Shown here in pieces: positions 251-21,093 of a DNA stretch of 21,118 bases. A program made the position numbers and the translations under genes. The notes beneath the pieces were generated by a model. It saw nothing but the letters and a program-made list of their open reading frames with translations, searched no databases and was not told the origin of the DNA. Origin of the DNA: Candidatus Komeilibacteria bacterium (GTDB lineage: Bacteria > Patescibacteriota > Patescibacteriia > UBA1558); contig JANLIN010000056.1 in assembly GCA_024654345.1 (NCBI GenBank), positions 1 through 21,118 on the forward strand, given 5' to 3'. Each line of letters opens with the position of its first letter. The first letter of the stretch is position 1.

Positions 251-1075
251 TTATGATATTCCGTTTTCGCCGCGTTCTTCCTTTTGCACCAGACTGGTGC
301 GCAAAGCGGCAAAATCGATGGTTTTTAAAAATCCTAGAGTCACTGTTTTATCAGTTGGCTCGACTTTAACTCGTCTGACGTTCGCAACAGTCTGCAGACG
401 ACCGTCAGCGTAGCCGTTGACCGCCGTCCGTGAATCAATATCAATCACTATTGTCTGGGGTGAAACAATATCACAGGGATAGGCTCCAGTGGCGACGCCA
501 GCCACCGCCCAGCTATTGGAATCAAGAGGCAAAACTATGGCACTACCCTTAGACTTAAGCGCGTACGCAGTAGTGCCTTGCGCCGTGGCGATGATAATTC
601 CATTACCGTTAACGCGGCGATTGGGAAAGTGGCTTAGAGACCCGCGGATCGTGAATGTATTGTAGTCAGCTATATCACTGCCACAGAAAATATCATTGAA
701 GGCAAGGTGCTCGATCTCTCTACCTTGTTGATCAGTAAAAGTGACCTTGATAAGATTGACGGCTATCTGATTTAGCTCCGACAAATGTGTCGGGATTTGA
801 CTGATATCACTGATCGGGTTCAGCAGGAAGCCGAGGCGACCCCGGTTTATCCCGAAGAAAACTTTTTTCGACTGGTAGTATTGCCGACAAGCGTGCATAA
901 ACCCACCATCTCCCGTTGCTACTAGAAAGGCATTGGCCTTGTCCGGATTTTCAGTCACCACGCCGCTGGGAAGAAGGTAATCACGGACCCAGGCTCTGAC
1001 GTCCGCGCTTCGCTCGGCACCGGTGTCTTCTTCCGGCGGTAGAATGGGGTAATAAATTAATCTGTCATCGTTCAT
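251..1075 (-). CDS. nadK: NAD+ kinase (NadK/PpnK)
   Basis: 274 aa with a GDGG motif (LVATGDGGFMHA) and a TAQGTTAYALKSKGS segment resembling the NAD kinase GGDG / TPTGSTAYS motifs. An AGGAA RBS lies upstream. The gene sits within the NAD cluster. Confidence 0.75.
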   Translation of the reverse strand: MNDDRLIYYPILPPEEDTGAERSADVRAWVRDYLLPSGVVTENPDKANAFLVATGDGGFMHACRQYYQSKKVFFGINRGRLGFLLNPISDISQIPTHLSELNQIAVNLIKVTFTDQQGREIEHLAFNDIFCGSDIADYNTFTIRGSLSHFPNRRVNGNGIIIATAQGTTAYALKSKGSAIVLPLDSNSWAVAGVATGAYPCDIVSPQTIVIDIDSRTAVNGYADGRLQTVANVRRVKVEPTDKTVTLGFLKTIDFAALRTSLVQKEERGENGIS

Positions 1076-1135
1076 GGTATTTCCTATTTATTTAGTTTTT
1101 AAATTACTCATCACAAAGATGTAAGTTTACATCTC

Positions 1136-1170
1136 TCTGATAAGCGGGAAAAGAGATTTTCTCTTTTCCC
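1136..1170. promoter_or_regulatory. Intergenic element TCTGATAAGC + perfect 11-bp-arm palindrome GGGAAAAGAGA-TTT-TCTCTTTTCCC between Nudix and nadK
   Basis: Perfect inverted repeat at 1146-1170. It shares a 10-mer prefix and arm consensus with the element at 1948-1980. Confidence 0.5.
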
Positions 1171-1176
1171 AAACTT

Positions 1177-1875
1177 TTAGGAATTACGCTCTTTTTGCAG
1201 CGTTTTCCAGAATGTCTTCGCCGCCGTGACAAAAGAGCTAAACTCTTTTTTCAGTTGCGCCAATTCAGGACGCTTCTCTAATATCTCGCCCACCTCGGCT
1301 AAAGTCTCCCGAACTTTGGCTTCGGTGCCGGTAGTCAACAGCAAGGATAATCGTTTACGACTCAAGAACCAGCTCACCAAAGCCATTGTTTTGGCATCGT
1401 TGAACGTCATATTCACCACCTCACGGCAGGAGATTACGTGTCGCCGAATATCTTCACCGCCTTCTGTCTGATAATGGTCGCGAGCGGACAATCGACGACT
1501 ATCTACTTCCACATAGGCCAGATAAGCGGCTCCTGAAACTATCCCTGGCGATAGAGATATCGGAGAACCATCATTAACGATCACAACTTCAGCTTCGGAT
1601 AGTTTGAGACCAATTTCTTCCTCAACCTCCTTAACCGCCAGCTGCTGAATAGTATAGTTGCCGTCAAAGCGGCCGGCGACTATTTCCATTGAATCTGGAT
1701 CGTGCTGGTGCTGTCCGTATTTCTTGGCCGGCCTTTTCTGCTCTATAAAGACAAGGCAATCCAAGTCTTTCAGATATACCAACACCGCCACGGCGTCTGT
1801 ATCGCAAACCACGGTATCGCCGCTTTTTTCATCACGGACGACTTTTATAAAATCGTTTTTGAATAAATGTTCCAT
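1177..1875 (-). CDS. Nudix hydrolase (ADP-ribose pyrophosphatase-like)
   Basis: Nudix box AGRFDGNYTIQQLAVKEVEEEIGL (G-x5-E-x7-REV-x-EE-x-G). The ORF track starts at 1884 (MRIMEHL), but the second ATG at 1875 (MEHLFK) has a better-spaced AAAGGA SD, so the true start may be 1875 or 1884. Confidence 0.7.
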   Translation of the reverse strand: MEHLFKNDFIKVVRDEKSGDTVVCDTDAVAVLVYLKDLDCLVFIEQKRPAKKYGQHQHDPDSMEIVAGRFDGNYTIQQLAVKEVEEEIGLKLSEAEVVIVNDGSPISLSPGIVSGAAYLAYVEVDSRRLSARDHYQTEGGEDIRRHVISCREVVNMTFNDAKTMALVSWFLSRKRLSLLLTTGTEAKVRETLAEVGEILEKRPELAQLKKEFSSFVTAAKTFWKTLQKERNS

Positions 1876-1947
1876 AATTCTCATCCTTTCTTTTTTTGTG
1901 AAATGAACGTGCTTTTGCTTATGACAATCATCTATAATATAAATGAC

Positions 1948-1980
1948 TCTGATAAGCAGGGAAAGGAGTTCCTTTCCCTG
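1948..1980. promoter_or_regulatory. Intergenic element TCTGATAAGC + 11-bp-arm palindrome CAGGGAAAGGA-GT-TCCTTTCCCTG between pncB and Nudix
   Basis: Inverted repeat at 1957-1980. Sister copy of the 1136-1170 element. Confidence 0.5.
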
Positions 1981-1985
1981 GAGAA

Positions 1986-3284
1986 TTAATAAACACAGGC
2001 CTCTTCAAACTTGTTCTCATAATGCACAAGTTTTTTATACCTGGCTATTTCGTCGGGATCGCCGGTGGCCTTGGCAATATTATCACTCAGCTTGACCAGC
2101 TTGCAACCATTCGCCTCTGTCGGCTTGATTACGATCGAGAGCGGATTTAGCCCCAGAAAATCGAAAGTAAGATTGGTACCCCAGCCATTACCAATATTTA
2201 TTAGTCGGGCGTACTTCTTATACAAACTGATCATGAGGGGAAGTTTTAGACCGTCGCTATAGAAAAGCGTCTTACGATTGCTATCAATCTTCCGTCGCTT
2301 GTAGTGAGCGATCACTTTTTCACTATATTGCGCCGGGTCACCCGAATCCTGTCGAAATCCCAGCCATTGCTGGAAATCATTGTCTTTCATATTATGAAAA
2401 AAATAATCACTTCCGTATGTGTCTGTCGGTGGCACCATGCGATCAAATCCGTACATCGCCAGCCAACGATCCATAAATTCACGCTGGGCTTGAGACAGAT
2501 CTCCACCCGCCGCCAATTTCAAACCGGCAATAACCATCTGCGGCTCATGTGCCGACGTACCGCGCGGTATCAGGGAATCTTCTTTGGCAATAAAGACATT
2601 GGACGTACCCTGGAAGTTTTCCGGTAGCGCTCTGGCCACAGTATTGGTAACATATCTCTGCCACTCGGGATGAAAAGCACGGCGCGTGCCAAAATCCACA
2701 AACGGCAATAAGTATGGATAATTCTGCTCTTCGGACCACTGATTTAGACTACGAAGATCGCTTATTTTTGCTTTCAGCCGCGCTATACCGTTCTTGATTA
2801 GAGATTCTTTTTGGGAAATCGTCATCTCCTTCAGCCACGCCTGGCAAGCCAACGCGTTCACTATCTGCAAGGCCGGTATTTCCCAGTACGTTGATTGCTT
2901 CCAAGCCTGTGAGAATTCCAGCTCTAGCTGTCCGTCCGGCGATATCTCCAAATTATAATCTGACCACTGGAAATTTTTCAGAAATTCCAGGTATCCCGTG
3001 GTATCTGACAGATTCTCACCCCTTACTATGTTACCGATATATGCCACCTCGGCCGCTGTCGGCAGTACTGTTTTGACGTGGTCGAGCTCTTCTTTCAATC
3101 GGCCAATATCTATCAAGCGCCCCAGCTTCACCGCCGTCGTCCGGTTGATAAAGCTGGAATTTGTCTCGACATCTCTGTACCATTTATGGATGAACTGCCC
3201 CATTGTAAATTTGTACATATCAGTCTGTAGAAAAGACTTAATTATCGGCTCGTCCACCGTTTTTAGGATTTTATCTACTATCAT
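1986..3284 (-). CDS. pncB: Nicotinate phosphoribosyltransferase
   Basis: 432 aa; the N-terminal FLQTDMYKFTMGQ matches the NAPRTase hallmark (TDxYKxTM). Length is typical. The start overlaps the upstream gene's stop (ATGA), indicating translational coupling. Confidence 0.8.
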   Translation of the reverse strand: MIVDKILKTVDEPIIKSFLQTDMYKFTMGQFIHKWYRDVETNSSFINRTTAVKLGRLIDIGRLKEELDHVKTVLPTAAEVAYIGNIVRGENLSDTTGYLEFLKNFQWSDYNLEISPDGQLELEFSQAWKQSTYWEIPALQIVNALACQAWLKEMTISQKESLIKNGIARLKAKISDLRSLNQWSEEQNYPYLLPFVDFGTRRAFHPEWQRYVTNTVARALPENFQGTSNVFIAKEDSLIPRGTSAHEPQMVIAGLKLAAGGDLSQAQREFMDRWLAMYGFDRMVPPTDTYGSDYFFHNMKDNDFQQWLGFRQDSGDPAQYSEKVIAHYKRRKIDSNRKTLFYSDGLKLPLMISLYKKYARLINIGNGWGTNLTFDFLGLNPLSIVIKPTEANGCKLVKLSDNIAKATGDPDEIARYKKLVHYENKFEEACVY

Positions 3285-4138: not shown

Positions 4139-4237
4139 AGTAAAAACCTCACTTCCTAAATTGTGTTTATTAATAATATTAATGTACATACTTCTTAAGA
4201 AGCTTGGTCCGAAATAGTTCAGACAAAACTTTTTAAG

Positions 4238-4271
4238 CGGGATAAGTGATGTTTAACATCGCCTTATCCCG
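4238..4271. promoter_or_regulatory. Nested hairpin CGGGATAAG-[TGATGTTTAACATCGC]-CTTATCCCG downstream of pncA
   Basis: 9-bp outer stem and an inner GATGTT/AACATC stem. It may be the pncA terminator or an attenuator; only a weak T-run follows. Confidence 0.4.
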
Positions 4272-4276
4272 AAATA

Positions 4277-4984
4277 CTAACCGATCAGTTCTCGGGTAGT
4301 CGTGAGTCTCACGCCAGCCGTTTTGAAAAACATATTCATTTCCTCATGACCCGCCTCGTCTCCCAAATCCTGCGTGGCATCTTTTACCACAGTCACCTGA
4401 TAGCCAAGGTCTGCTAAATCCAAAGCCGTCCAACCAACACAATAGCGATATACCAGCCCACAGACAAATATTTTTTTCGGGCGCATCTGCTTAATAATAG
4501 GTAAGAGGACTAGCTCACGTCCGGCATTGTCTCTCACGGCGCTATAAGAATCACGCGTCGGCTCCAATCCTTTCCTTACTACAACGCCATCGTATTCAGC
4601 AAAGGCCTGATGTTTTCCGGCTTCTTTACCTAGGCCATGATCCGGCCATAAGGTTTGATGATGAATTCTACGTAAGTAAAGTTTGAGATCATCGACGGTA
4701 AATTTAGCCTTTGGTCCTATTTTGCTATCTTCTTTCGTCCACTGCGCCACTTCCTCGTAGGTAAGCACGTAAAAATTCGGTAAGTCGACGTATGAACTGG
4801 CAAAAGATATATGACCAACCTCATGTACATCTAGCGTGAATACTCTCTTATCCTCCGGGAAAAGCGGTAGGATTCTCTTGATAGGTGCAATCACTTTGTC
4901 GCCACCTTGTACAGCTAATCCGCCACCCGGCATGAAAGTGAGAGTAGCATCTATCACCACCAGTGCGTCCTGTCTTCCTATCAT
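4277..4984 (-). CDS. pncA: Nicotinamidase (isochorismatase family, PncA)
   Basis: 235 aa. It has ALVVIDATLTF (catalytic Asp region), a metal-binding DVHEVGH (D-x-H-x3-H) and the catalytic Cys context FVCGLVYRYCVGWT. An AAGGAG RBS lies upstream. Confidence 0.75.
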   Translation of the reverse strand: MIGRQDALVVIDATLTFMPGGGLAVQGGDKVIAPIKRILPLFPEDKRVFTLDVHEVGHISFASSYVDLPNFYVLTYEEVAQWTKEDSKIGPKAKFTVDDLKLYLRRIHHQTLWPDHGLGKEAGKHQAFAEYDGVVVRKGLEPTRDSYSAVRDNAGRELVLLPIIKQMRPKKIFVCGLVYRYCVGWTALDLADLGYQVTVVKDATQDLGDEAGHEEMNMFFKTAGVRLTTTRELIG

Positions 4985-5059
4985 TGGCTTTCAGCTCCTT
5001 TCTGTTTAATCAATGAACTACACTCTTTAGCAATTAGAAACTCTGCTCCTGAAAAGCAG

Positions 5060-5088: not shown

Positions 5089-5120
5089 ATTCCGTAAAAA
5101 TTAACATTAAATAGAATTTA

Positions 5121-5157
5121 TGTCAACCCCAGTCATGTTTAACACGACCGGGGTTAA
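5121..5157 (-). terminator. Stem-loop downstream of the vWA gene (AACCCCAGTC...GACCGGGGTT, loop ATGTTTAACAC); possible terminator or regulatory hairpin
   Basis: A 10-bp stem with one G-U pair lies about 20 nt after the vWA stop. The T-run is imperfect. The loop shares the ATGTTTAACA core with the hairpin at 4238-4271. Confidence 0.35.
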
Positions 5158-5177
5158 CTTGAATGAAAAAAGTGCGT

Positions 5178-5966
5178 TTAGTTGCCGAAACCACCCATGG
5201 CGGCCTGGCTGAAATTGGCGGCTGATTGACTGGCGCGAACTGCCGATTGAGAGAAAAGCAGGAAGGCCTGGCGAATCTCTTTCTCTGTATTCTTCGGTGT
5301 CAGGATCCATTCATCAGGTATGCCCATGTCCGAGAATACCCGTTGGAAATCCGTACTACCATCATCAATGCCCATCGCTGCCACGATATGCATCTCTGTT
5401 TTTAACATGTCCTTCACCACCACCGCCACATCCTTGGCGCTGTACTTACGCGAGTGCTGATCACTGCCGTCGCTGATGATAAGCGTGATGGTGCGGGCCG
5501 GGACGCCATTGTCGGAGAATTCCTGCGCCTTGGCCAGAACAGTACCCAGTAGTACTATCGTCTGGTCATAGAGTGGGGTGCCCTGGTCAGGATTGTAGTT
5601 CTGAGTATCCATTATTTCCGCTTGTTCCACCATCGTGTACGGGTAAAGGATCTTCCCGTTTAGATAGCGATTATGCGCTAGTATATTGTCTTTCTGTTTA
5701 GAGGCGCGCAGGGAATTGAGTACCAGATTGTGACCGTTCCTGACCGCGGCGGCATTGCCGGCGAAACGGATAGACCCGGAATCATCCGGCATCATGCTTA
5801 CCAGTATTACCTCGCTGGCTTCAACATCGTCGACGGCCACGCCCAGCGCCGCCTGTATTTCGGCGCCGATATCCAGGACATTTAGTATCTGCTCAGATTG
5901 GGCGGACAGATTACCGTCTGCTTTGGCGTTGTTCACCAACTGACTTACTTTGCTTTGCTTGTTCAT
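5178..5966 (-). CDS. von Willebrand factor A (vWA) domain protein, TerY-like
   Basis: 262 aa from MNKQSK, with a strong AGGAGG RBS; I prefer this start to the track's upstream-extended 6128 start, which overlaps the previous gene. The MIDAS motif DDSGSI (DxSxS) and a second ISDGSD are present. The C-terminus has a Q/S-rich tail. Confidence 0.75.
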   Translation of the reverse strand: MNKQSKVSQLVNNAKADGNLSAQSEQILNVLDIGAEIQAALGVAVDDVEASEVILVSMMPDDSGSIRFAGNAAAVRNGHNLVLNSLRASKQKDNILAHNRYLNGKILYPYTMVEQAEIMDTQNYNPDQGTPLYDQTIVLLGTVLAKAQEFSDNGVPARTITLIISDGSDQHSRKYSAKDVAVVVKDMLKTEMHIVAAMGIDDGSTDFQRVFSDMGIPDEWILTPKNTEKEIRQAFLLFSQSAVRASQSAANFSQAAMGGFGN

Positions 5967-6042
5967 TTTGTGACCTCCTGGCTCCGACGATAGTGTCGAA
6001 GCCGTTTTTTGTGATTGAAAAATATTTTTCCGTGCTAGTGTC

Positions 6043-7086
6043 TTATAGATTGAGATCGGGCCAATCTTCCAAAGGTTGAGTCGTCTTGACGACATGCATG
6101 CCCGCCGCCGCAAAACGACGAAACGCATCGTCGGCTTGGTCGGTGAAATCTATAATACCCGGCACGACCACGGCGGAAGTACAATCTTCCAACAAGTAAA
6201 CCTTTTTGGCCAGTTCCGGATCGTGAGCTTGTATTTCATTGAGTAAGTCATCAATCGTCCAAGCCACGCAATGACTTTTGGCTTGGCCGGCAATGATAAC
6301 AGCGTCATATTTCATCAGCTTCTCAATAAAACGAGAATTACTCTGTGCGATCGGACGTCCGGTATGATCTTCCGTTATTTCCGGCTTCAAGACAGAATAA
6401 TTTTCTGTCAGTGGATTACCGCCTTTGATTTCGAAACCGGTTTGGCTGGTGCGTGCTAAATTGTGAAAGAAAACAGCTTCTTCGATAACCGCCGTCAGAG
6501 CGTGACCAATACCACCCAGCATGGCGTGGTAGGTCCAGATCATCAACGGATATTTTCCGTCTGCCGTCAGCTTGGCCACGTAGTGGCGCGCATATTTCTG
6601 CAGAAAGCTGTAACTACCGGTAATACTGTTGGCGATGGCGGGGTTTACTTTCCATATGCCCTTCTCAACATCCGTCAGCGTAATGATGGTTTGATTCCCG
6701 ATCGGATGTTCGCCCTGATCATTGATCCAAAACACCGGATGAAAGATTTGCATGGCGGTATGAGTGTCCATTGTCGGATCTATCTCTGTAATAACGCCTA
6801 GATAGCGATAGATGAATTCCGCCAATCGGACATTATCTTCGATGGCGCCCTTGCCACTGCGCCCCCCTACAAAAAGTTCAAAATCCGGGAGGCAGAAAGT
6901 ATTCTGCGCGTCTATTACCATCAAGCAGAGACGCGTCTTATCAACGGCGGCTTTCTTGATCTTGTGTTTGTCGGCCCATTCTCTGGCATCACGCGCCCGC
7001 TGTTCGTACGGAACTCTCCAGACACTATCGGCTTTGGACGCATCAAAGTGCTGAGGAATGGGTAATTCGTGGACTGATCTTTTCAT
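6043..7086 (-). CDS. Large nicotinamidase/isochorismatase-family amidase paralog
   Basis: 347 aa. Motifs are CLMVIDAQNTFC (catalytic Asp), DTHTAMQIFH (D-x-H-x6-H metal site as in nicotinamidases) and AGQAKSHCVAWTIDDL (catalytic Cys). About 150 extra residues lie between the metal site and the Cys relative to canonical ~190-aa enzymes. An AAAGGAG RBS lies upstream. Confidence 0.7.
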   Translation of the reverse strand: MKRSVHELPIPQHFDASKADSVWRVPYEQRARDAREWADKHKIKKAAVDKTRLCLMVIDAQNTFCLPDFELFVGGRSGKGAIEDNVRLAEFIYRYLGVITEIDPTMDTHTAMQIFHPVFWINDQGEHPIGNQTIITLTDVEKGIWKVNPAIANSITGSYSFLQKYARHYVAKLTADGKYPLMIWTYHAMLGGIGHALTAVIEEAVFFHNLARTSQTGFEIKGGNPLTENYSVLKPEITEDHTGRPIAQSNSRFIEKLMKYDAVIIAGQAKSHCVAWTIDDLLNEIQAHDPELAKKVYLLEDCTSAVVVPGIIDFTDQADDAFRRFAAAGMHVVKTTQPLEDWPDLNL

Positions 7087-7137
7087 GACTAATACTCCTT
7101 TCTAAGAGTTTTTTGTGAAGTTCGAAACTGTGTTTTT

Positions 7138-9003
7138 CTATGTTAAACGTAACAGATTTATTTCTCGACGCGATACCACGTAGAGCCCCTCTCGACCAGG
7201 ATGTAGATAAGACTGAGAGCTGACAAAGGGCTCGGTGTCAGGATACTCCTGCACGATCGCCAGGTTGTGGCCGCTTATACCAATCTTGAATATTCCTTCA
7301 TCGCTAGTCGAAAGTATTTTATCGCCGACCGGACATTTGCCGCGAATAGTACCAAGCCAACTACCATCGTCGGCTTCGGCGCTACCGATAGCGATAACGC
7401 TTCCGGCCGGCCCTATTACTTCGCACCGGTTAACGGTTTTGCCTTGAACGCGGCTACTGGTAAAAAACCAGGCGTTGTCAGCGACAAAAACAGTGGTGGC
7501 GTCGAGTAACTGACCCGTTATAGCGACCATATTTTTTACATCCTTCAATCCTTTCCGCTGATAATCAAACAAAAAGGTACGTCGGATTTCACCGGCCTGA
7601 TAAAATCCCAATCCCTGGTGTGCCCCGCTCCAAAGCAGAGTCTGATTGGATAAGGCCTGTCCCATGAATTCTTGGCCAAATTTTCCCCGGCGTAACAATT
7701 GTCCATTGTTGAGCCAAAACAGCCGGCCTGCACTGCTGTCAAACATCGGGATGTGGCGATAGTGATCCACGGCGTACTTGTTTTCTAGACGTTCCCGGTG
7801 GTATTCATGGATAACTCCGTTTAGACCCACCCAGGTAGTCTCGCCCCAGATCCGAAATCTGGCATTGGCGAAAGTTTCCGGAAAAGGTATTTTCCAACCC
7901 TCTTCTCTAACCAGTTGACCGTTTTCTCGGACCAGCCAGATTAGTCGCTCATTGTCAGTAGTAGCCTGGACAATCTGTCCTTTCGTCTGATAAAGACGAG
8001 TTGCCTTCACGGTACCGCGAATTACCGTTACCTCCCGGATAGCCGCCGGCGCCGCCGTACTACAAGTCGGACAGATGGATCGTGCGTGTTCCTGACCACA
8101 CTGCTGACAGGTAGTAAAACGGGTTAATTGCAGTAGTTTTTCCGGAAAGGGGTTTCTTTTGTCCTGGACAAATGTCTGATAAAAATAATCCAGCAAATCA
8201 TCAGAGAGAACACTGTAGTGAACCGCCGGCTTAGGATACTTTACTTCCGGATGAAAGACGGTAATCCGCTTGAGCGGACGTAGCTGATGGATTATTCGCT
8301 GTTTCTTGTCAGCCGGTCGGTAGATACCCCCATAAGGATCTACATACAGCAGACTATTCATCAGCATGACTGTAAAGGCATACCAATCCGAGGAGCTTGT
8401 AAACGGTTTGTATAGCTCGAGCGATTGGCGACGCGCGTCGGTCAGCAAAGGGTCAAGGAATTTGACAGTAAACATCCGACAAAGATAGCGTCCAAACTGA
8501 TAGCTGTCGGTATCTATCAGATAGGCTTGCTCATCTTTCACCAGAACATTCAAATCGTTAAAATCACCAACCACTACTTTCCTATCGTGCAAAGCCGAAA
8601 CAGCTTGGAGAAGCGAGCTGAATATTGTCAGTAGCGCGTTATTGTCCACTCTCCCCGGCCGGAACTTCTTGTCGCTGAAGCGCAACATTACTTCCGAGTC
8701 GGCAATGAGTGGCATACTGTAACCAACTATAAATCCCTTGCTATCTGACGCCAGTGCCACCGGTGCCACTATATTGGCCGGCAATCCAGCAGGAAAATCT
8801 GACAGTTTTGTTTGATGTTCCTCTAGCCTGTGCCGGGCCCCTTGTTGCTCCAGCGGCAGTCCGCGCAAATCGGGATGATGGGGAGACTTAAAAATTTTAA
8901 GTGCCAGTTTATCGTTTAGTCGATAAATATCGGCTTCTCCGCCCTTGCCAATGGCTTGCGCGGGAGTGATATTTATCGGATTGCCGGCTAAATAGATTTT
9001 CAT
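7138..9003 (-). CDS. Ser/Thr protein kinase-like protein with central zinc ribbon and C-terminal beta-propeller-like repeats
   Basis: 621 aa. It has a glycine-rich loop IGKGGEADIY, a Lys in ALKIFK, a catalytic loop HDRKVVVGDFNDLNVLV and LIDTDS (DFG-like). CQQCGQEHARSICPTC forms a CxxC...CxxC ribbon. Repeated W/G-rich blades follow. A GGAGG RBS lies upstream. The start overlaps the PP2C stop (ATGA). Confidence 0.7.
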   Translation of the reverse strand: MKIYLAGNPINITPAQAIGKGGEADIYRLNDKLALKIFKSPHHPDLRGLPLEQQGARHRLEEHQTKLSDFPAGLPANIVAPVALASDSKGFIVGYSMPLIADSEVMLRFSDKKFRPGRVDNNALLTIFSSLLQAVSALHDRKVVVGDFNDLNVLVKDEQAYLIDTDSYQFGRYLCRMFTVKFLDPLLTDARRQSLELYKPFTSSSDWYAFTVMLMNSLLYVDPYGGIYRPADKKQRIIHQLRPLKRITVFHPEVKYPKPAVHYSVLSDDLLDYFYQTFVQDKRNPFPEKLLQLTRFTTCQQCGQEHARSICPTCSTAAPAAIREVTVIRGTVKATRLYQTKGQIVQATTDNERLIWLVRENGQLVREEGWKIPFPETFANARFRIWGETTWVGLNGVIHEYHRERLENKYAVDHYRHIPMFDSSAGRLFWLNNGQLLRRGKFGQEFMGQALSNQTLLWSGAHQGLGFYQAGEIRRTFLFDYQRKGLKDVKNMVAITGQLLDATTVFVADNAWFFTSSRVQGKTVNRCEVIGPAGSVIAIGSAEADDGSWLGTIRGKCPVGDKILSTSDEGIFKIGISGHNLAIVQEYPDTEPFVSSQSYLHPGREGLYVVSRREINLLRLT

Positions 9004-9824
9004 GTTATTCCCCTCCTTTCCGGACCGACCTTTCGTATGACAACCAGGGTGGTGTCATCAGTTAGGTGGCCATTTTGCACTTCCATCCGGCTCTCCTGCC
9101 AGAGTGGCCGACTAACGTCGCGGTTAACCAACGTAAGCTGACGACGAACACTGTCCGGATTCTTGAAATACCGATCTTCCGTCCAGAAATTCAGCAACGG
9201 ACCGACTTCTCTGTCCTGACCGGGCACGATTTTATTGGCCGCCGCTACATAATCACCAATACCGTCAGTGGCTATCAACAGATGAGAAATGGCCGCCGTT
9301 TTTTCCTGCACCTTCATCTGCCACATAAACCGCTGATCCATGGGTTGAAATAGACCATAAGCGATGTAGGGTGGCTGATTGTCAGAAAATGGTCCGAGGG
9401 CGATATAATTGTCATTGCAGACAATTAAACCGTCACCGATTGCCGCTATGACCAGTCTATCTTCGTGGATTACCGCCGCGATAGCGGTGAATAGACCGTA
9501 GTCCTCGATGAATCTATTGGCGCCGCTAGGGTTGGGTCGTGTCAGCCAATACAACTCACGTAAAACATCCAAGCGCACGGTATCCCAGTACCGCGTGGAG
9601 CTGATATTCAGAGACAAATTTCTTTTCAGGCTGTTGGCTATCAGCTGAGCACCCAACTTGGCGCCAACTTCACTGCCGGGACTACTGCCACAACCGTCTG
9701 TCACAACGGCGATGATACTGTCATTGCCAGGCAAGATGCAGAAGGCGTCTTGATTGTTACGACCAGATTGCCGATGGTGACGTCCGATGACACTACCGCC
9801 GGCTATTTCAAACAAATCTTTCAT
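9000..9824 (-). CDS. PP2C-family Ser/Thr protein phosphatase
   Basis: 274 aa. Motifs are GRHHRQSGRNNQDAF (R-x-x-NQD), VVTDGCGSSPGSEVGAKLG (DGxGG...G) and LIATDGIGD (second metal-binding Asp). An AAGGAG RBS lies upstream. Confidence 0.75.
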   Translation of the reverse strand: MKDLFEIAGGSVIGRHHRQSGRNNQDAFCILPGNDSIIAVVTDGCGSSPGSEVGAKLGAQLIANSLKRNLSLNISSTRYWDTVRLDVLRELYWLTRPNPSGANRFIEDYGLFTAIAAVIHEDRLVIAAIGDGLIVCNDNYIALGPFSDNQPPYIAYGLFQPMDQRFMWQMKVQEKTAAISHLLIATDGIGDYVAAANKIVPGQDREVGPLLNFWTEDRYFKNPDSVRRQLTLVNRDVSRPLWQESRMEVQNGHLTDDTTLVVIRKVGPERRGIT

Positions 9825-9932
9825 GTTTATCTCCTTTTATGTATGTAGTTTTCAAAGATCTGGAACGCCTATCTCTTAGAGAAAGGATTCTACGTCAACC
9901 CGGAGTCTGGCCGAGCTGACGTTGAACTCTTT

Positions 9933-9961
9933 CTTAGTGTTAAATATACACTTACTAATAT
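9933..9961. repeat. Copy A of a ~27-bp direct repeat CTTAGTGTwAAwATATACAC..TA.TA flanking nrtR (palindromic core GTGTTAAATATACAC)
   Basis: It matches 10661-10689 in the same orientation at about 24 of 27 positions. It lies between the nrtR stop and the PP2C-kinase operon start. Confidence 0.5.
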
Positions 9962-9981: not shown

Positions 9982-10659
9982 TTACAAAATATTAACCACT
10001 GCCAGAGATCGACTGGTAAATTCAAATAATGCCGCCGGCCGATTGGCCTCACCCCTTCTCTTCTTGCCGGTGGTCTTCACCAATCCTAACGACCCGACTT
10101 TTTTGCGAAAATTTCGCTTGTCGATCTCCTGATCCAAAATTATCTCGTATACTTTCTGTAATTCCGACAAAGTAAACTGCCGGGGTAACAAACTGTAAAC
10201 TATGTTGGTATAGCCGAGCTTGGAGCGCAGTCTCTTTACACCCGTCTTTAATATTTCCGCATGATCGTAAGCCAGCGCAGGTAGCTTGGCCACCGGCCAC
10301 CAACGCACGTCCGCGTATTCGGCGGTAGTCTTTAACATCAAACTTTTATCATACGGTAATAATGCGTAGTAGGCGACGGACAATACTCGACCGTAGGGAT
10401 CTCTTTTTTCCCCGCCAAAAGCATATAGCTGTTCCAAGAAAATATCAGACACGCCGGTCTTGGCCTGAAGGTGGCGACGCGCGGCTTTCTCGACTGATTC
10501 GCTGATTTTAACCATGCCGCCCGGCAAAGCCCATTTTCCTTGATAAGGCTTCTTTTTCATCTTTATCAACAGAACGTTGAGCGCCTCGCCTCGCAGGCTG
10601 AAAATAACCACATCCGTGGCGGCGGCGACAAATTTGAATTTTTGATAAGGTTTACTCAT
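9982..10659 (-). CDS. nrtR: NrtR-family Nudix-related transcriptional regulator of NAD metabolism
   Basis: 225 aa. The N-terminal Nudix fold has GKWALPGGMVKISESVEKAARRHLQAKTG. The C-terminal winged-helix region has FTLSELQKVYEIILDQEIDKRNFRKKV, typical of NrtR. It is located inside an NAD salvage cluster. Confidence 0.65.
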   Translation of the reverse strand: MSKPYQKFKFVAAATDVVIFSLRGEALNVLLIKMKKKPYQGKWALPGGMVKISESVEKAARRHLQAKTGVSDIFLEQLYAFGGEKRDPYGRVLSVAYYALLPYDKSLMLKTTAEYADVRWWPVAKLPALAYDHAEILKTGVKRLRSKLGYTNIVYSLLPRQFTLSELQKVYEIILDQEIDKRNFRKKVGSLGLVKTTGKKRRGEANRPAALFEFTSRSLAVVNIL

Positions 10660-10660
10660 A

Positions 10661-10689
10661 CTTAGTGTAATATATACACATAGTATTTC
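10661..10689. repeat. Copy B of the nrtR-flanking direct repeat (palindromic core GTGTAATATATACAC), 6 nt upstream of the nrtR start codon
   Basis: Same motif as 9933-9961. The 15-bp core is palindromic (GTGTA-ATATA-TACAC). It sits where the nrtR SD would be; nrtR has no obvious SD. Confidence 0.5.
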
Positions 10690-11285: not shown

Positions 11286-11309
11286 AGCCTCCAAAAAACG
11301 TCTACTCAG

Positions 11310-11339
11310 CCCCGTTCACAATGGACGGGGTTTTATTTT
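11310..11339 (+). terminator. Rho-independent terminator (CCCCGT-loop-ACGGGG followed by TTTTATTTT)
   Basis: GC stem plus T-run immediately after the 10770..11285 ORF. Confidence 0.7.
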
Positions 11340-11997: not shown

Positions 11998-12027
11998 AAA
12001 GAGCTGTTTTTAAAAAACAGCTCTTCT
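11998..12027. terminator. Bidirectional rho-independent terminator (AAAGAGCTGTTTT/AAAACAGCTCTTT palindrome flanked by A- and T-runs)
   Basis: Perfect 13-bp inverted repeat with T-runs on both sides. It sits between the convergent genes 11417..11995 (+) and 12031..12861 (-). Confidence 0.7.
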
Positions 12028-14875: not shown

Positions 14876-15200
14876 AGTAAATCACAATTCCGCACCGGAG
14901 AAGATCGCTGAAAAAATTCCGAGCGGAATCATGAAAATCATAGATAATGTGGGCAATACAGAAGTCACAGTTAGTGACATTCTATACGATTTAAAAGGCA
15001 CTCGCCTCAATTTTTCCTTCAAAGCTAGCTATGATGAACACTGTGTGTCAGTCAAAGGTAAGATGGATATTCTAAGAAATTGCGTTATCATGAATATAAA
15101 CTTACCAATGGTAGCACTTTTGTTCGTTAAAAGTGATGAAATCAAAAAAGTCATCACGAAAAAGCTAATTGAATTCATTCAAAACGAAGAAGCGGTTTAA
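14865..15200 (+). CDS. Hypothetical small protein (111 aa), start overlaps the previous stop
   Basis: The ATG overlaps the stop of 14375..14875, indicating translational coupling. A terminator follows. Confidence 0.45.
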   Translation: MKIKVNHNSAPEKIAEKIPSGIMKIIDNVGNTEVTVSDILYDLKGTRLNFSFKASYDEHCVSVKGKMDILRNCVIMNINLPMVALLFVKSDEIKKVITKKLIEFIQNEEAV

Positions 15201-15218
15201 AAATCGCTTCTTTTTTTC
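15189..15218 (+). terminator. Rho-independent terminator GAAGCG-loop-CGCTTC followed by TTTTTTT
   Basis: The stem overlaps the stop codon region of 14865..15200. A 7-T run follows. Confidence 0.6.
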
Positions 15219-18735: not shown

Positions 18736-18757
18736 TACTAAAAAAATAAGTATTAAC

Positions 18758-18790
18758 AACCGGATGATCTATATCATCCGGTTTTTTTAT
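18758..18790. terminator. Bidirectional rho-independent terminator (AACCGGATGAT-CTAT-ATCATCCGGTT with flanking A-run and T-run)
   Basis: Perfect 11-bp stem between convergent flotillin (+) and the small membrane protein gene (-). Confidence 0.75.
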
Positions 18791-19114: not shown

Positions 19115-19170
19115 ACAATTAATAGTTGAATGATTATACGTACATTATATAACCGAACGTTGTTTGCGCC

Positions 19171-19200
19171 AATAAAAAACCAGCCTCTTATGAAGGCTGG
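19171..19200 (-). terminator. Rho-independent terminator for the histidine phosphatase gene (CCAGCCT-loop-AGGCTGG then TTTTTTATT on minus strand)
   Basis: 7-bp GC-rich stem directly after the stop at 19207, followed by a T-run. Confidence 0.65.
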
Positions 19201-19206
19201 GATATT

Positions 19207-20240: not shown

Positions 20241-20268
20241 AAAGAGCCGTTATTTAAAACAGCTCTTC
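20241..20268. terminator. Diverged copy of the 11998-12027 terminator palindrome (AAAGAGCCGTTATTTAAAACAGCTCTT)
   Basis: Hairpin with one mismatch, homologous in position and sequence to the terminator after the intact gene. Confidence 0.55.
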
Positions 20269-20301: not shown

Positions 20302-21093
20302 TTACCAATAGGGCTTAAAGTCATGATTGCCCAGTAAAGAACAGTGTCTGGCTAAATAGTCAGACGAACTAACTAGCTGATAGCGCTTTTTAAATTCATA
20401 TTTATCTATCGTCGGTATTTGGTCCAAAACTACTTGAAAATCATCAAAATCCCACGACGACTTTTTATTTAAAATAACCCGCGCTACCAGTAACAACTCT
20501 TCATTTGGCTCAAAGTTATTCCACAATTCTTTAGGAATAAACCTTTTAAAGTGATAATTACCCATAGTAGGATAAAGCTTTATCATCACTCTCTTACTAC
20601 GGCAGAGCTTAATCTTGCTATCAAAACAAGAGATATCGGGCAGACTCACCTTCAGCCGACACTTTAAATACTCGGCCGTATGAGCACAATAATTTTTTAT
20701 TTCTTCTTCCACCACATTGTGATCCCGCTCCGTTTTACTTAAAGTGCTGAACATTTTGGATAAATACGGTAAAGGATGATGAACAACCGTTGTCCTGGCT
20801 TTATTGATATCAAGACGATGGAGCTCAGAGAACACTCCCGACCCTAGACCGAACTCATGAATCATACCGGGAATTACCGCCAGGGGCGTTAAGTCTAACT
20901 TTTCGAACCTTTCAATAATTTCCGCTCGACCCTTTTTATATCGAGTCTTGCTGTTAACTACCATGCTGTTATACCGCTTTAAATCATCCAGCGGAATTCC
21001 CTGTTTCAAAGAAACAGGGATTTCTCTCAAAACAGAGTCAAAATAATTCTTGATGAAGCGATCCACCTCTAAAATCCATTTCTCCTTTTTCAT
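20302..21093 (-). CDS. Hypothetical protein (263 aa), AT-rich; weak polymerase-beta-like nucleotidyltransferase hint (GLGSG-x9-DIN), not asserted
   Basis: Long ORF with GAAGGA RBS. Lower GC than the NAD cluster. No confident motif recognised. Confidence 0.4.
   Translation of the reverse strand: MKKEKWILEVDRFIKNYFDSVLREIPVSLKQGIPLDDLKRYNSMVVNSKTRYKKGRAEIIERFEKLDLTPLAVIPGMIHEFGLGSGVFSELHRLDINKARTTVVHHPLPYLSKMFSTLSKTERDHNVVEEEIKNYCAHTAEYLKCRLKVSLPDISCFDSKIKLCRSKRVMIKLYPTMGNYHFKRFIPKELWNNFEPNEELLLVARVILNKKSSWDFDDFQVVLDQIPTIDKYEFKKRYQLVSSSDYLARHCSLLGNHDFKPYW

What the first reader, a model, noticed from the sequence alone, without database searches (positions are those of the whole stretch)
1136..1980. 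Paired intergenic elements: shared 10-mer TCTGATAAGC followed by near-perfect 24-25-bp palindromes (GGGAAArGAG arms)
Two sister elements (1136-1170 and 1948-1980) each sit in a gene-gene gap of the nadK-Nudix-pncB run. Their 11-bp perfect arms are too long and too GC-defined to be chance. They could be protein-binding operators with dyad symmetry, intrinsic terminator/attenuator hairpins that set the stoichiometry of Nudix versus PncB versus NadK, or a miniature REP-like repeat family.
Basis: seen in the sequence. Interest (0 to 1): 0.5.

Follow-up and report, generated by a model that had tools for sequence, protein, structure and literature searches.

The report
Double RNA hairpins between NAD-salvage genes
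The two look-alike palindromes are real, but each is half of a two-hairpin RNA structure that sits just behind a stop codon inside a long NAD-salvage operon of an uncultured (CPR) bacterium, so they most likely act as ordinary between-gene mRNA punctuation and not as a protein-binding operator or a standard terminator.

Summary
TCTGATAAGC occurs exactly twice (1136, 1948), each time beside a perfect 11-bp-arm palindrome (1146-1170, 1957-1980). The window holds 4 such stems; shuffles give 0.02.

All genes here lie on the minus strand. On that sense RNA the "10-mer" is the 5' arm of a second, longer hairpin (H2) that abuts the palindrome (H1) with no spacer. H1 starts 5-6 nt after the upstream stop codon.

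A third copy lies at 4194-4271, behind pncA. The junction TCCC(N0-1)GCTTA occurs only at these three sites.

H2 folds far better on the sense strand (-20.7 vs -9.6 and -13.6 vs -6.3 kcal/mol) because of G·U pairs. H1 length varies from 20 to 35 bp with compensating changes. No U-tail follows, although six canonical U-tailed terminators exist elsewhere in the contig. The elements do not match the NrtR boxes I found at 9934 and 10662, nor any Rfam family.

Syntenic operons in other CPR genomes carry their own versions with different sequences.

Best reading: a lineage-specific, REP/BIME-like intercistronic stem-loop module. Its function is inferred and was not tested. Genome-wide copy number could not be measured. 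Interest is modest.

The parts
1146..1170 (-). Element A, hairpin H1: GGGAAAAGAGA-AAA-UCUCUUUUCCC. Perfect 11-bp stem that begins 6 nt after the Nudix stop codon (1177-1179).
   Evidence: -14.8 kcal/mol
1106..1145 (-). Element A, hairpin H2: GCUUAUCAGAGAGAUGUAA..UUACAUCUUUGUGAUGAGU. It has 17 pairs including 3 G·U and abuts H1 with no spacer.
   Evidence: I2; sense -20.7 vs antisense -9.6 kcal/mol
1957..1980 (-). Element B, hairpin H1: CAGGGAAAGGA-AC-UCCUUUCCCUG. It begins 5 nt after the pncB stop codon (1986-1988).
   Evidence: -16.3 kcal/mol
1917..1957 (-). Element B, hairpin H2: GCUUAUCAGAGUCAUUUAUA..UAUAGAUGAUUGUCAUAAGC. It has 17 pairs including 2 G·U and is directly adjacent to H1.
   Evidence: sense -13.6 vs antisense -6.3 kcal/mol
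4238..4271 (-). It begins 5 nt after the pncA stop codon (4277-4279) and shares TAAGCGGGAWAAG with element A.
4194..4237 (-). Element C, hairpin H2: CUUAA.AAGUUU.GUCUGAA..UUCGGAC.AAGCUU.UUAAG. It is directly adjacent to H1 and has 2 G·U pairs.
   Evidence: sense -16.4 vs antisense -11.2 kcal/mol
5120..5160 (-). Related hairpin in the next gap upstream, behind the 262-aa gene. It has the same 10-nt tip (ATGTTTAACA) as element C's H1, 2 G·U pairs and no U-tail.
251..1075 (-). Gene downstream of element A: a divergent NAD kinase. It is followed 10 nt later by the N-terminus of NAD synthase (2-241).
1177..1884 (-). Gene between elements B and A: an ADP-ribose-pyrophosphatase-like Nudix hydrolase. 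The likely start is 1875, which gives 232 aa.
1986..3284 (-). Gene upstream of element B: nicotinate phosphoribosyltransferase (PncB). It overlaps the preceding ORF 3281-4138/4189.
4277..4984 (-). Gene upstream of element C: a nicotinamidase (PncA)-like isochorismatase-family protein.

Best explanation
Elements A and B, together with a third copy C, are copies of a lineage-specific intergenic module. The module is transcribed as part of a long minus-strand NAD-salvage operon in a Candidatus Komeilibacteria (CPR) genome. The gene order is PP2C, kinase-like, two unknown genes, pncA, unknown gene plus pncB, Nudix, nadK, nadE. The operon lies downstream of an NrtR box.

On the mRNA each module folds into two directly abutting hairpins. 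H1 is G-rich and purine-first (GGGA...UCCC) and starts 5-6 nt after the upstream stop codon. H2 is longer and AU-rich (GCUUA...UAAG).

The module most likely works like REP/BIME elements and other intercistronic stem-loops. It does not end transcription. It would act as a barrier to 3'-to-5' decay or as a processing point, so that segments of the polycistronic mRNA differ in stability. Because it sits within 6 nt of the stop codon, it may also slow termination of the upstream cistron. Together these effects would set the relative output of PncB, Nudix and NadK.

What is shown: the structure, the strand bias, the position, the paralogy, and the absence of terminator, operator and riboswitch signatures. 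What is inferred: co-transcription of the genes and the effect on stability or translation.
For: The two-hairpin fold appears in all three gaps, and each gap folds far better than shuffled sequence (z -8.5, -5.9, -3.6).

In a plain MAFFT alignment the RNAalifold consensus of A, B and C is two adjacent helices with 25 pairs, 11 of them with compensatory changes. In that alignment 92% of cells are paired, against 46-52% when partners are slid, and 11 pairs are compensatory against 1-4 when slid.

The sense strand is favoured. Whole gaps give -42.2 vs -30.2 and -38.3 vs -30.8 kcal/mol. H2 gives -20.7/-9.6, -13.6/-6.3 and -16.4/-11.2. In the single-hairpin folds there are 9 G·U pairs on the sense strand and 2 on the antisense strand.

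The junction TCCC(N0-1)GCTTA occurs 3 times in the window, only at these junctions and only on the minus strand.

In this contig all 6 U-tailed terminator hairpins lie outside the NAD cluster, and all 9 strong U-less intergenic hairpins lie inside it. No sigma-70-like promoter was found in gaps A or C. The only hit in gap B overlaps the start codon.

Other genomes show the same architecture with unrelated sequences in syntenic operons: L019 9907-9995; L022 16359-16423 and 18250-18314 (sister copies); L095 7242-7318. In L022 a canonical terminator sits at the operon end.

REP hairpins are reported to stabilise mRNA, and to affect translation when fewer than 16 nt from a stop codon (PMC12306157).
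Against: There are no expression data, so co-transcription, 3' ends and any effect on stability are all inferred.

H1 in A and B is perfectly Watson-Crick, so it folds equally on both strands. H1 of C folds slightly better on the antisense strand (-20.1 vs -18.1 kcal/mol). The strand argument therefore rests on H2 and on hairpin D.

Only three paralogous copies exist, and each is a hairpin on its own, so the covariation is weak evidence.

A wider survey of about 60 PncB loci found U-less hairpins about equally often at co-directional 3' ends (37 of 76 hairpins) and at convergent 3' ends (12 of 27). The split between operon-internal and operon-end hairpins holds within this contig but was not shown to be general.

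Genome-wide copy number is unknown, because the genome is absent from the collections that could be scanned.
Confidence: 0.5

Rival explanations
1. The elements are weak, non-canonical intrinsic terminators or attenuators. H1, a G-rich hairpin directly behind the stop codon, would cause partial termination without a U-tract. Transcript levels would then step down from pncB to Nudix to nadK.
For: The stem has a GC-rich base and a 3-4-nt loop, and it sits 5-6 nt after the stop codon, which is a typical terminator position. Three of the first 8 nt after H1 are U. U-less hairpins are also seen at convergent 3' ends in related loci.
Against: The terminator scan did not call them. The same contig uses six clear U-tailed terminators at the ends of transcription units. 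A second hairpin follows immediately instead of a U-run. The next gene starts 31-55 nt later with no detectable promoter.
Confidence: 0.17
2. The elements are a neutral or selfish miniature palindromic repeat (REP/MITE-like) that has spread by duplication, transposition or gene conversion among intergenic gaps. They would have no specific role in NAD-gene expression.
For: Sequence sharing between copies is mosaic: A and B share CTCTGATAAGC, A and C share TAAGCGGGAWAAG, and C and D share ATGTTTAACA. Another Komeilibacteria genome has its own pair of roughly 90%-identical sister modules. The junction motif is not conserved in 790 kb of related loci, where 9 hits is the chance level.
Against: All copies have one orientation and one position, 5-6 nt after a stop codon on the sense strand. 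G·U pairs favour the transcribed strand. All three copies lie in one operon, and none lies in the other 11 kb of the contig. No GTAG/CGTC tag is present, and no transposase is seen in the window.
Confidence: 0.15
3. The module is a translational-coupling clamp. The two hairpins would bring the end of the upstream ORF next to the ribosome-binding site of the downstream gene, and these two regions would pair. A terminating ribosome would melt that pairing and so control downstream initiation.
For: In the predicted folds UUCCUA at the Nudix stop pairs with the nadK Shine-Dalgarno sequence UAGGAA. AAUUCUC at the pncB stop pairs with GAGAAUU at the Nudix start. UUUCGGC pairs with GCUGAAA in gap D. 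Cognate duplexes beat shuffled or genomic nulls at P 0.01-0.08 for A, B and D.
Against: The pairing is not significant for C, E or F, and a non-cognate pair (A-5' with C-3') is stronger than the cognate A pair. When a ribosome is modelled at the stop codon, the Shine-Dalgarno sequence stays paired (P 0.6-0.9), so no clear switch appears. Pairing of the two ends is a common artefact of minimum-free-energy folding.
Confidence: 0.08
4. The elements are duplex-DNA operators with dyad symmetry, bound by NrtR or another regulator.
For: The palindromes are perfect, and an NrtR gene lies in the same cluster at 9982-10659.
Against: The elements lack the GT-N7-AC core and the 21-bp symmetry of NrtR sites (PMC2330246). 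The window has two good NrtR boxes of another sequence, and similar boxes occur in L019, L021, L022 and L023. Half-site spacing varies from 20 to 35 bp with compensating arm changes. The mismatches are G·U only on the sense RNA. No promoter was found nearby for such an operator to control.
Confidence: 0.04

Closest known systems
REP/BIME elements of enterobacteria (repetitive extragenic palindromes, often in pairs)
   Same: Both are short intergenic palindromes that are transcribed within operons and occur as adjacent pairs. They form RNA hairpins without acting as terminators. They lie close behind stop codons: REPs fewer than 16 nt from a stop affect translation, and REP hairpins block ribonucleolytic decay (PMC12306157). 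In both cases the sequence is lineage-specific and copies resemble one another within a genome.
   Different: Here the two hairpins of a module are unrelated to each other, whereas a BIME is two inverted copies of one REP. Copies share only 10-13-nt blocks and not a full consensus. No GTAG/CGTC tag is present. Copy number beyond three, and any RAYT transposase, could not be assessed.
Intercistronic stabiliser stem-loops of polycistronic mRNAs (for example malE-malF, or puf of Rhodobacter; cited from my own knowledge)
   Same: Both are hairpins without a U-tract, located between co-directional cistrons. Both are thought to set unequal expression of genes in one operon through segmental mRNA stability.
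   Different: Those cases were shown experimentally. Here function is only inferred. Also, the module here is a fixed two-hairpin unit anchored 5-6 nt from the stop codon.
Rho-independent (intrinsic) terminators
   Same: Both have a G-rich stem with a small loop just downstream of a stop codon.
   Different: These elements have no U-tract, a second hairpin follows directly, and they lie inside a gene run. The same contig has canonical terminators elsewhere.
NrtR operators (21-bp palindromes with a GT-N7-AC core)
   Same: Both are palindromic and lie in an NrtR-linked NAD gene cluster.
   Different: The sequences differ, the core is missing, and the arm spacing is variable. The real candidate NrtR boxes are at 9934-9951 and 10662-10679.

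Membership tests
REP/BIME | Located in extragenic (intergenic) DNA near gene ends | tested here: met
   All three modules lie in gene-gene gaps and start 5-6 nt after stop codons.
REP/BIME | Palindromic and able to form a stem-loop; short (14-40 nt in E. coli) | tested here: met
   H1 is 24-34 nt and H2 is 40-44 nt. Stabilities range from -13.6 to -20.7 kcal/mol.
REP/BIME | Copies are highly similar and share a consensus motif | tested here: inconclusive
   A and B share an 11-mer plus GGGAAA. A and C share a 13-mer. The junction TCCC(N)GCTTA is found in all three. The rest of each copy is divergent.
REP/BIME | Many copies per genome | not testable with these tools
   Only this 21-kb contig is available, and the genome is absent from the scanned genome collection. 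There are three copies in 21 kb, all in one operon.
REP/BIME | 5' GTAG/CGTC tag and an associated RAYT transposase | tested here: not met
   No GTAG or CGTC flanks either hairpin on either strand. No transposase domain was found among the window ORFs. The rest of the genome was not seen.
Intrinsic terminator | GC-rich stem with a loop of 3-8 nt | tested here: met
   H1 has an 11-bp stem with GGG/CCC at its base and a loop of 3-4 nt.
Intrinsic terminator | U-tract directly after the stem | tested here: not met
   The tails are GCUUAUCAGAG, CUUAUCAGAG and CUUAAAAAG. The terminator scan did not list these hairpins, but it listed 11308-11332 and 11999-12025.
Intrinsic terminator | Lies at the end of a transcription unit | tested here: inconclusive
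   The next co-directional gene starts 31-55 nt after H2 and no promoter-like site was found. There are no transcript data.
NrtR operator | 21-bp palindrome with a GT-N7-AC core | tested here: not met
   The definition comes from PMC2330246. H1 has no GT..AC core. The centre of A's H2 is GT-N6-AC. The pattern built from the window's own boxes hits only 9934 and 10662, even with 3 mismatches allowed.
NAD+ riboswitches and any other Rfam family | Match to a curated covariance model | tested here: not met
   cmscan of the whole window at E<=1 gave only two weak L20-leader hits, both at terminators elsewhere.
Integron attC site | R''/R' core sites (RYYYAAC...GTTRRRY) flanking one long imperfect palindrome, with an integrase nearby | tested here: not met
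   No AAC/GTT cores occur at the ends of A, B or C. Each module is two separate hairpins and not one long palindrome. No integrase domain was found among the window ORFs.
Intercistronic mRNA stem-loop (functional class) | Folds on the transcribed strand between co-transcribed cistrons | tested here: met
   The sense strand is favoured by 7-12 kcal/mol per gap, with 9 vs 2 G·U pairs. Co-transcription itself is inferred.
Intercistronic mRNA stem-loop (functional class) | Stabilises the upstream mRNA segment, or marks processed 3' ends | not testable with these tools
   This needs RNA-seq, 3'-end mapping or reporter assays.

The most novel reading that the evidence does not exclude
The double hairpin could be a specific cis-regulatory RNA of the NrtR-linked NAD operon of CPR bacteria and not generic punctuation. 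In this reading a trans-acting protein or RNase would recognise the conserved hairpin bases and junction (GGGA...UCCC|GCUUA...UAAG). That factor would coordinate post-transcriptional expression of PncA, PncB, Nudix and NadK, adding a second layer of control to NrtR. The evidence consists of analogous purine-first, G-rich hairpins without U-tails in the same operon of several other CPR genomes: L019, L022, L021, L039, L066, L100, L101 and L032.
Probability: 0.1. Interest if true: 0.55.

Novelty: new member of a known kind. Interest (0 to 1): 0.3.

Why it matters
Candidate Phyla Radiation bacteria are uncultured, and almost nothing is known about how they tune gene expression within operons. If the inference holds, this would be an example of REP/BIME-like intercistronic RNA punctuation in that group, inside the pathway these reduced organisms depend on to salvage NAD. 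It would give concrete sequences for testing how operon stoichiometry is set without extra promoters. The work also corrects the annotation logic for this locus. As a biological finding it is useful but not surprising.

Tried and rejected
- **Genome-wide count.** I scanned the GTDB representative genomes with CTGATAAGCN{0,1}GGGAAAN{6,16}TTTCCC. This returned 13 single hits in unrelated taxa, about what chance predicts, and the window's own contig was not among them.
- **Close relatives for comparing the gaps.** The Nudix protein has only two homologues, at 41-42% identity. The best PncB homologues are 42-45% identical. Exact-protein look-ups of the Nudix protein found nothing.
- **Metagenome scan.** A scan with a PncB alignment gave 80 loci at 37-43% identity, from mixed taxa. 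The junction motif occurs there only at chance level.
- **Generic scans for tandem hairpins.** The first scan missed the window's own elements because of an over-extension artefact. The second was swamped by structures in GC-rich coding regions.
- **Survey of hairpins after stop codons.** U-less hairpins were about equally common at co-directional and convergent 3' ends. The idea that U-less hairpins are specific to operon-internal gaps was therefore not generalised.
- **Ribosome-dependent Shine-Dalgarno switch.** Modelling gave no clear switch.
- **Rejected classifications.** I rejected an NrtR, NadR or Fur-like operator, a riboswitch (Rfam), an integron attC site and a promoter. I also considered a DNA-uptake sequence, since only two copies of the 10-mer exist, but this could not be tested further.
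- **Nudix C-terminal tail.** I checked the roughly 60-aa C-terminal tail of the Nudix protein for a nucleic-acid-binding domain and found none.

Full report
**Source and layout.** The window is the whole 21,118-bp contig of a Candidatus Komeilibacteria (CPR/Patescibacteria) MAG. A 100%-identical Nudix protein in the database comes from a 21,118-bp contig under that name. From 9824 down to position 1 all genes lie on the minus strand. In transcription order they are:
- PP2C phosphatase (9000-9824)
- a kinase-like protein (7138-9003)
- a 347-aa isochorismatase-like protein (6043-7086)
- a 262-aa protein (5178-5966; start corrected)
- nicotinamidase-like PncA (4277-4984)
- an unknown ORF (3281-4138/4189) that overlaps PncB
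- PncB (1986-3284)
- an ADP-ribose-pyrophosphatase-like Nudix protein (1177-1884)
- a divergent NAD kinase (251-1075)
- the start of NAD synthase (2-241)

An NrtR regulator (Nudix domain plus NrtR winged helix) sits just upstream at 9982-10659.

**Checking the observation.** TCTGATAAGC occurs exactly twice, at 1136 and 1948. The shared word is actually the 11-mer CTCTGATAAGC. Perfect 11-bp arms lie at 1146-1156/1160-1170 and at 1957-1967/1970-1980. The window contains four perfect stems of at least 11 bp with a loop of at most 4 nt. Two hundred dinucleotide shuffles gave a mean of 0.02. The other two stems are canonical terminators.

Read on the transcribed (minus) strand, each gap has the order: stop codon, 5-6 nt, palindrome (H1), then immediately GCUUAUCAGAG. 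That word is the 5' arm of a second, longer, imperfect hairpin (H2: 1106-1145 and 1917-1957). The RNA of each gap folds into two hairpins that abut with no spacer. The fold z-scores against shuffles are -8.5 and -5.9.

A third copy with the same architecture lies behind pncA (H1 4238-4271, H2 4194-4237). It shares TAAGCGGGAWAAG with element A. The junction TCCC(N0-1)GCTTA occurs three times in the window, always on the minus strand and only at these junctions. The hairpin in the next gap upstream (5120-5160) has the same 10-nt tip, ATGTTTAACA, as element C. So sequence sharing among the gaps of this operon is mosaic.

**RNA or DNA.** H2 and hairpin D contain G·U pairs only when read on the sense strand.

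| Hairpin | Sense (kcal/mol) | Antisense (kcal/mol) |
|---|---|---|
| A H2 | -20.7 | -9.6 |
| B H2 | -13.6 | -6.3 |
| C H2 | -16.4 | -11.2 |
| D | -22.0 | -14.5 |

The single-hairpin folds contain 9 G·U pairs on the sense strand and 2 on the antisense strand. Whole gaps fold at -42.2 vs -30.2 and -38.3 vs -30.8 kcal/mol. H1 of A and B is perfectly Watson-Crick and so gives no strand information. H1 of C slightly favours the antisense strand.

A plain MAFFT alignment of A, B and C gives an RNAalifold consensus of two adjacent helices with 25 pairs, 11 of them with compensatory changes. In that alignment 92% of cells are paired, against 46-52% when partners are slid, and 11 pairs are compensatory against 1-4 when slid. 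With three paralogues that are each hairpins on their own, this mainly shows a shared architecture in register.

The distance between the conserved GGGA and UCCC ends of H1 is 25, 20 and 35 bp in the three copies. That fits selection for pairing and does not fit a dimeric protein site on duplex DNA.

**What it is not.**
- *Not a canonical terminator.* No U-tract follows H1 or H2, and the terminator scan did not call them. The same contig has six clear U-tailed terminators: 11308-11332, 11999-12025, 15182-15217, 18755-18786, one in the 19115-19206 gap and 20241-20268. All six lie outside the NAD cluster. All nine strong U-less intergenic hairpins lie inside it.
- *Not a promoter.* No sigma-70-like site was found in gaps A or C, and the only hit in B overlaps the start codon. 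The nrtR promoter, by contrast, was detected.
- *Not an NrtR operator.* NrtR sites are 21-bp palindromes with a GT-N7-AC core (PMC2330246). Two such boxes, TTAGTGTWAWWTATACAC, lie at 9934 and 10662, in front of the operon and of nrtR. Similar TAGTGTA-N5-TACACTA boxes occur upstream of the homologous operons in L019, L021, L022 and L023. H1 and H2 do not resemble them.
- *Not a known RNA family.* Rfam at E<=1 gave nothing there.
- *Not an attC site.* There are no R''/R' cores and no integrase.

**Comparison with other genomes.** The lineage is poorly sampled. The nearest Nudix and PncB homologues are 41-45% identical, and the genome is not in the GTDB representative set. Syntenic operons do exist:
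- *L019* (NrtR 60% identical) has, just before pncB, an H1 reading GGGAGUAGAGA...UCUCUACUCCC. It differs from A's H1 at two positions, with the matching changes in the 3' arm. A 19-bp H2 follows directly, and its 3' arm holds the pncB Shine-Dalgarno sequence.
- *L022*, a second Komeilibacteria genome, has two roughly 90%-identical sister modules (H1 GAGGGGGAGA-CCG-UCUCCCCCUC plus an adjacent H2). One lies right after pncB and one lies before nadE. The other internal gaps carry strong U-less hairpins, and a canonical terminator sits at the operon end.
- *L095* has an adjacent hairpin pair after pncB.
- Purine-first GGGAGA-type hairpins lie next to pncB or the 347/262-aa gene pair in L039, L066, L100, L101 and L032.

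The sequences are not conserved between genomes. The junction motif is at chance level in 790 kb of related loci. Lineage-specific sequence combined with a recurring architecture and copies that resemble one another within a genome is the REP-like pattern. It is not the pattern of a conserved orthologous regulatory motif.

A broader survey did not show that U-less hairpins are specific to co-directional gaps: 37 of 76 hairpins at co-directional 3' ends were U-less, against 12 of 27 at convergent 3' ends. I do not generalise beyond this contig and L022.

**Mechanism.** The best-supported reading is an intercistronic, non-terminating double stem-loop in a polycistronic mRNA, working as REP/BIME elements do. 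REP hairpins are reported to act as barriers to ribonucleolytic decay, and to reduce translation when they lie fewer than 16 nt from a stop codon (PMC12306157). Here H1 starts 5-6 nt from the stop codon. This would let the cell set different levels of PncA, PncB, Nudix and NadK from one NrtR-controlled transcript. The structure, the strand bias, the position and the paralogy are shown. Co-transcription and the effect on stability or translation are inferred. I put this at about 0.5.

**Rivals.**
- Weak, U-less partial terminators (0.17).
- Functionless selfish or gene-converted repeats (0.15).
- A translational-coupling clamp (0.08). In the predicted folds the end of the upstream ORF pairs with the downstream ribosome-binding region in A, B and D, with P between 0.01 and 0.08. 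The pairing is not significant in C, E or F, and one non-cognate pair is stronger than the cognate A pair. Modelling a ribosome at the stop codon gave no clear switch.
- A duplex-DNA operator (0.04).

**Verdict.** The finding is real and its anatomy is now clearer: three copies, two hairpins each, on the sense RNA and anchored to stop codons. It belongs to a known kind of element and counts as a new, lineage-specific member found in a CPR bacterium. Interest is modest at 0.3. It would rise if a whole-genome scan showed the element to be restricted to the NAD operon and recognised by a specific factor.

Noticed in passing
window 9934-9951 and 10662-10679: Two copies of TTAGTGTWAWWTATACAC with a GT-N7-AC core are candidate NrtR operators. 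One lies upstream of the PP2C-to-nadE operon. The other overlaps the nrtR promoter (TTGACT-17-TACTAT, 10708-10680). Similar TAGTGTA-N5-TACACTA boxes lie upstream of the homologous operons in L019, L021, L022 and L023.
   Followed up: partly
window 5178-9824; L019 5245-9894; L022 7169-11954; L023 7258-11876: A four-gene module is conserved next to NrtR and PncB in several CPR genomes: PP2C phosphatase, a roughly 620-aa kinase-like protein, a roughly 347-aa isochorismatase-like protein and a roughly 262-aa protein with no Pfam match. Its role in NAD metabolism is unknown.
   Followed up: partly
window 6043-7086: The 347-aa isochorismatase-like protein is 67-74% identical to each of the 120 best hits listed. 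These come from distant phyla, including many cyanobacteria, Aminicenantes and Parcubacteria. All 8000 scored candidates passed E<=1e-20. The neighbouring PncB and Nudix proteins have no relative above 45% identity. This suggests extreme conservation or horizontal transfer.
   Followed up: no
window 4249-4258 and 5135-5144: The tips of the hairpins behind pncA and behind the 262-aa gene share the exact 10-mer ATGTTTAACA, where 0.06 copies are expected by chance. This is a second pair of sister features in the same operon.
   Followed up: partly
L022 16359-16423 and 18250-18314: A different Komeilibacteria genome carries two roughly 90%-identical double-hairpin modules in its NAD operon, one after pncB and one before nadE. 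Their sequence is unrelated to the window's modules.
   Followed up: partly
window 1177-1185 with 1081-1086; 1981-1988 with 1875-1883; 5181-5190 with about 4990-4996: In the predicted folds the last codons and stop codon of the upstream gene pair with the Shine-Dalgarno or start region of the next gene, enclosing the hairpins. The pairing is modestly better than the nulls in three gaps and not in three others.
   Followed up: yes
window 1136-1176 and 1948-1985: In both gaps the shared word lies in the same reading frame relative to the upstream stop codon (xGC UUA UCA GAG). Read-through would add 21 and 17 codons. This is probably a one-in-three coincidence of the paralogy (sequences).
   Followed up: no
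window 1177-1350 (C-terminal part of the Nudix protein): The Nudix protein has a roughly 60-residue lysine/glutamate-rich C-terminal extension. Its only two homologues (187-188 aa) lack it, and no domain was detected in it.
   Followed up: partly
window 9887-9927 (minus strand): A strong hairpin without a U-tail (-21 kcal/mol) lies in the presumed 5' leader of the operon, between the NrtR box and the PP2C start codon.
   Followed up: no
window 20993-21025: A strong near-perfect palindrome, GGAATTCCCTGTTTC-AAA-GAAACAGGGATTTC, lies near the 5' end of ORF 20302-21093 at the contig edge. It was not examined.
   Followed up: no
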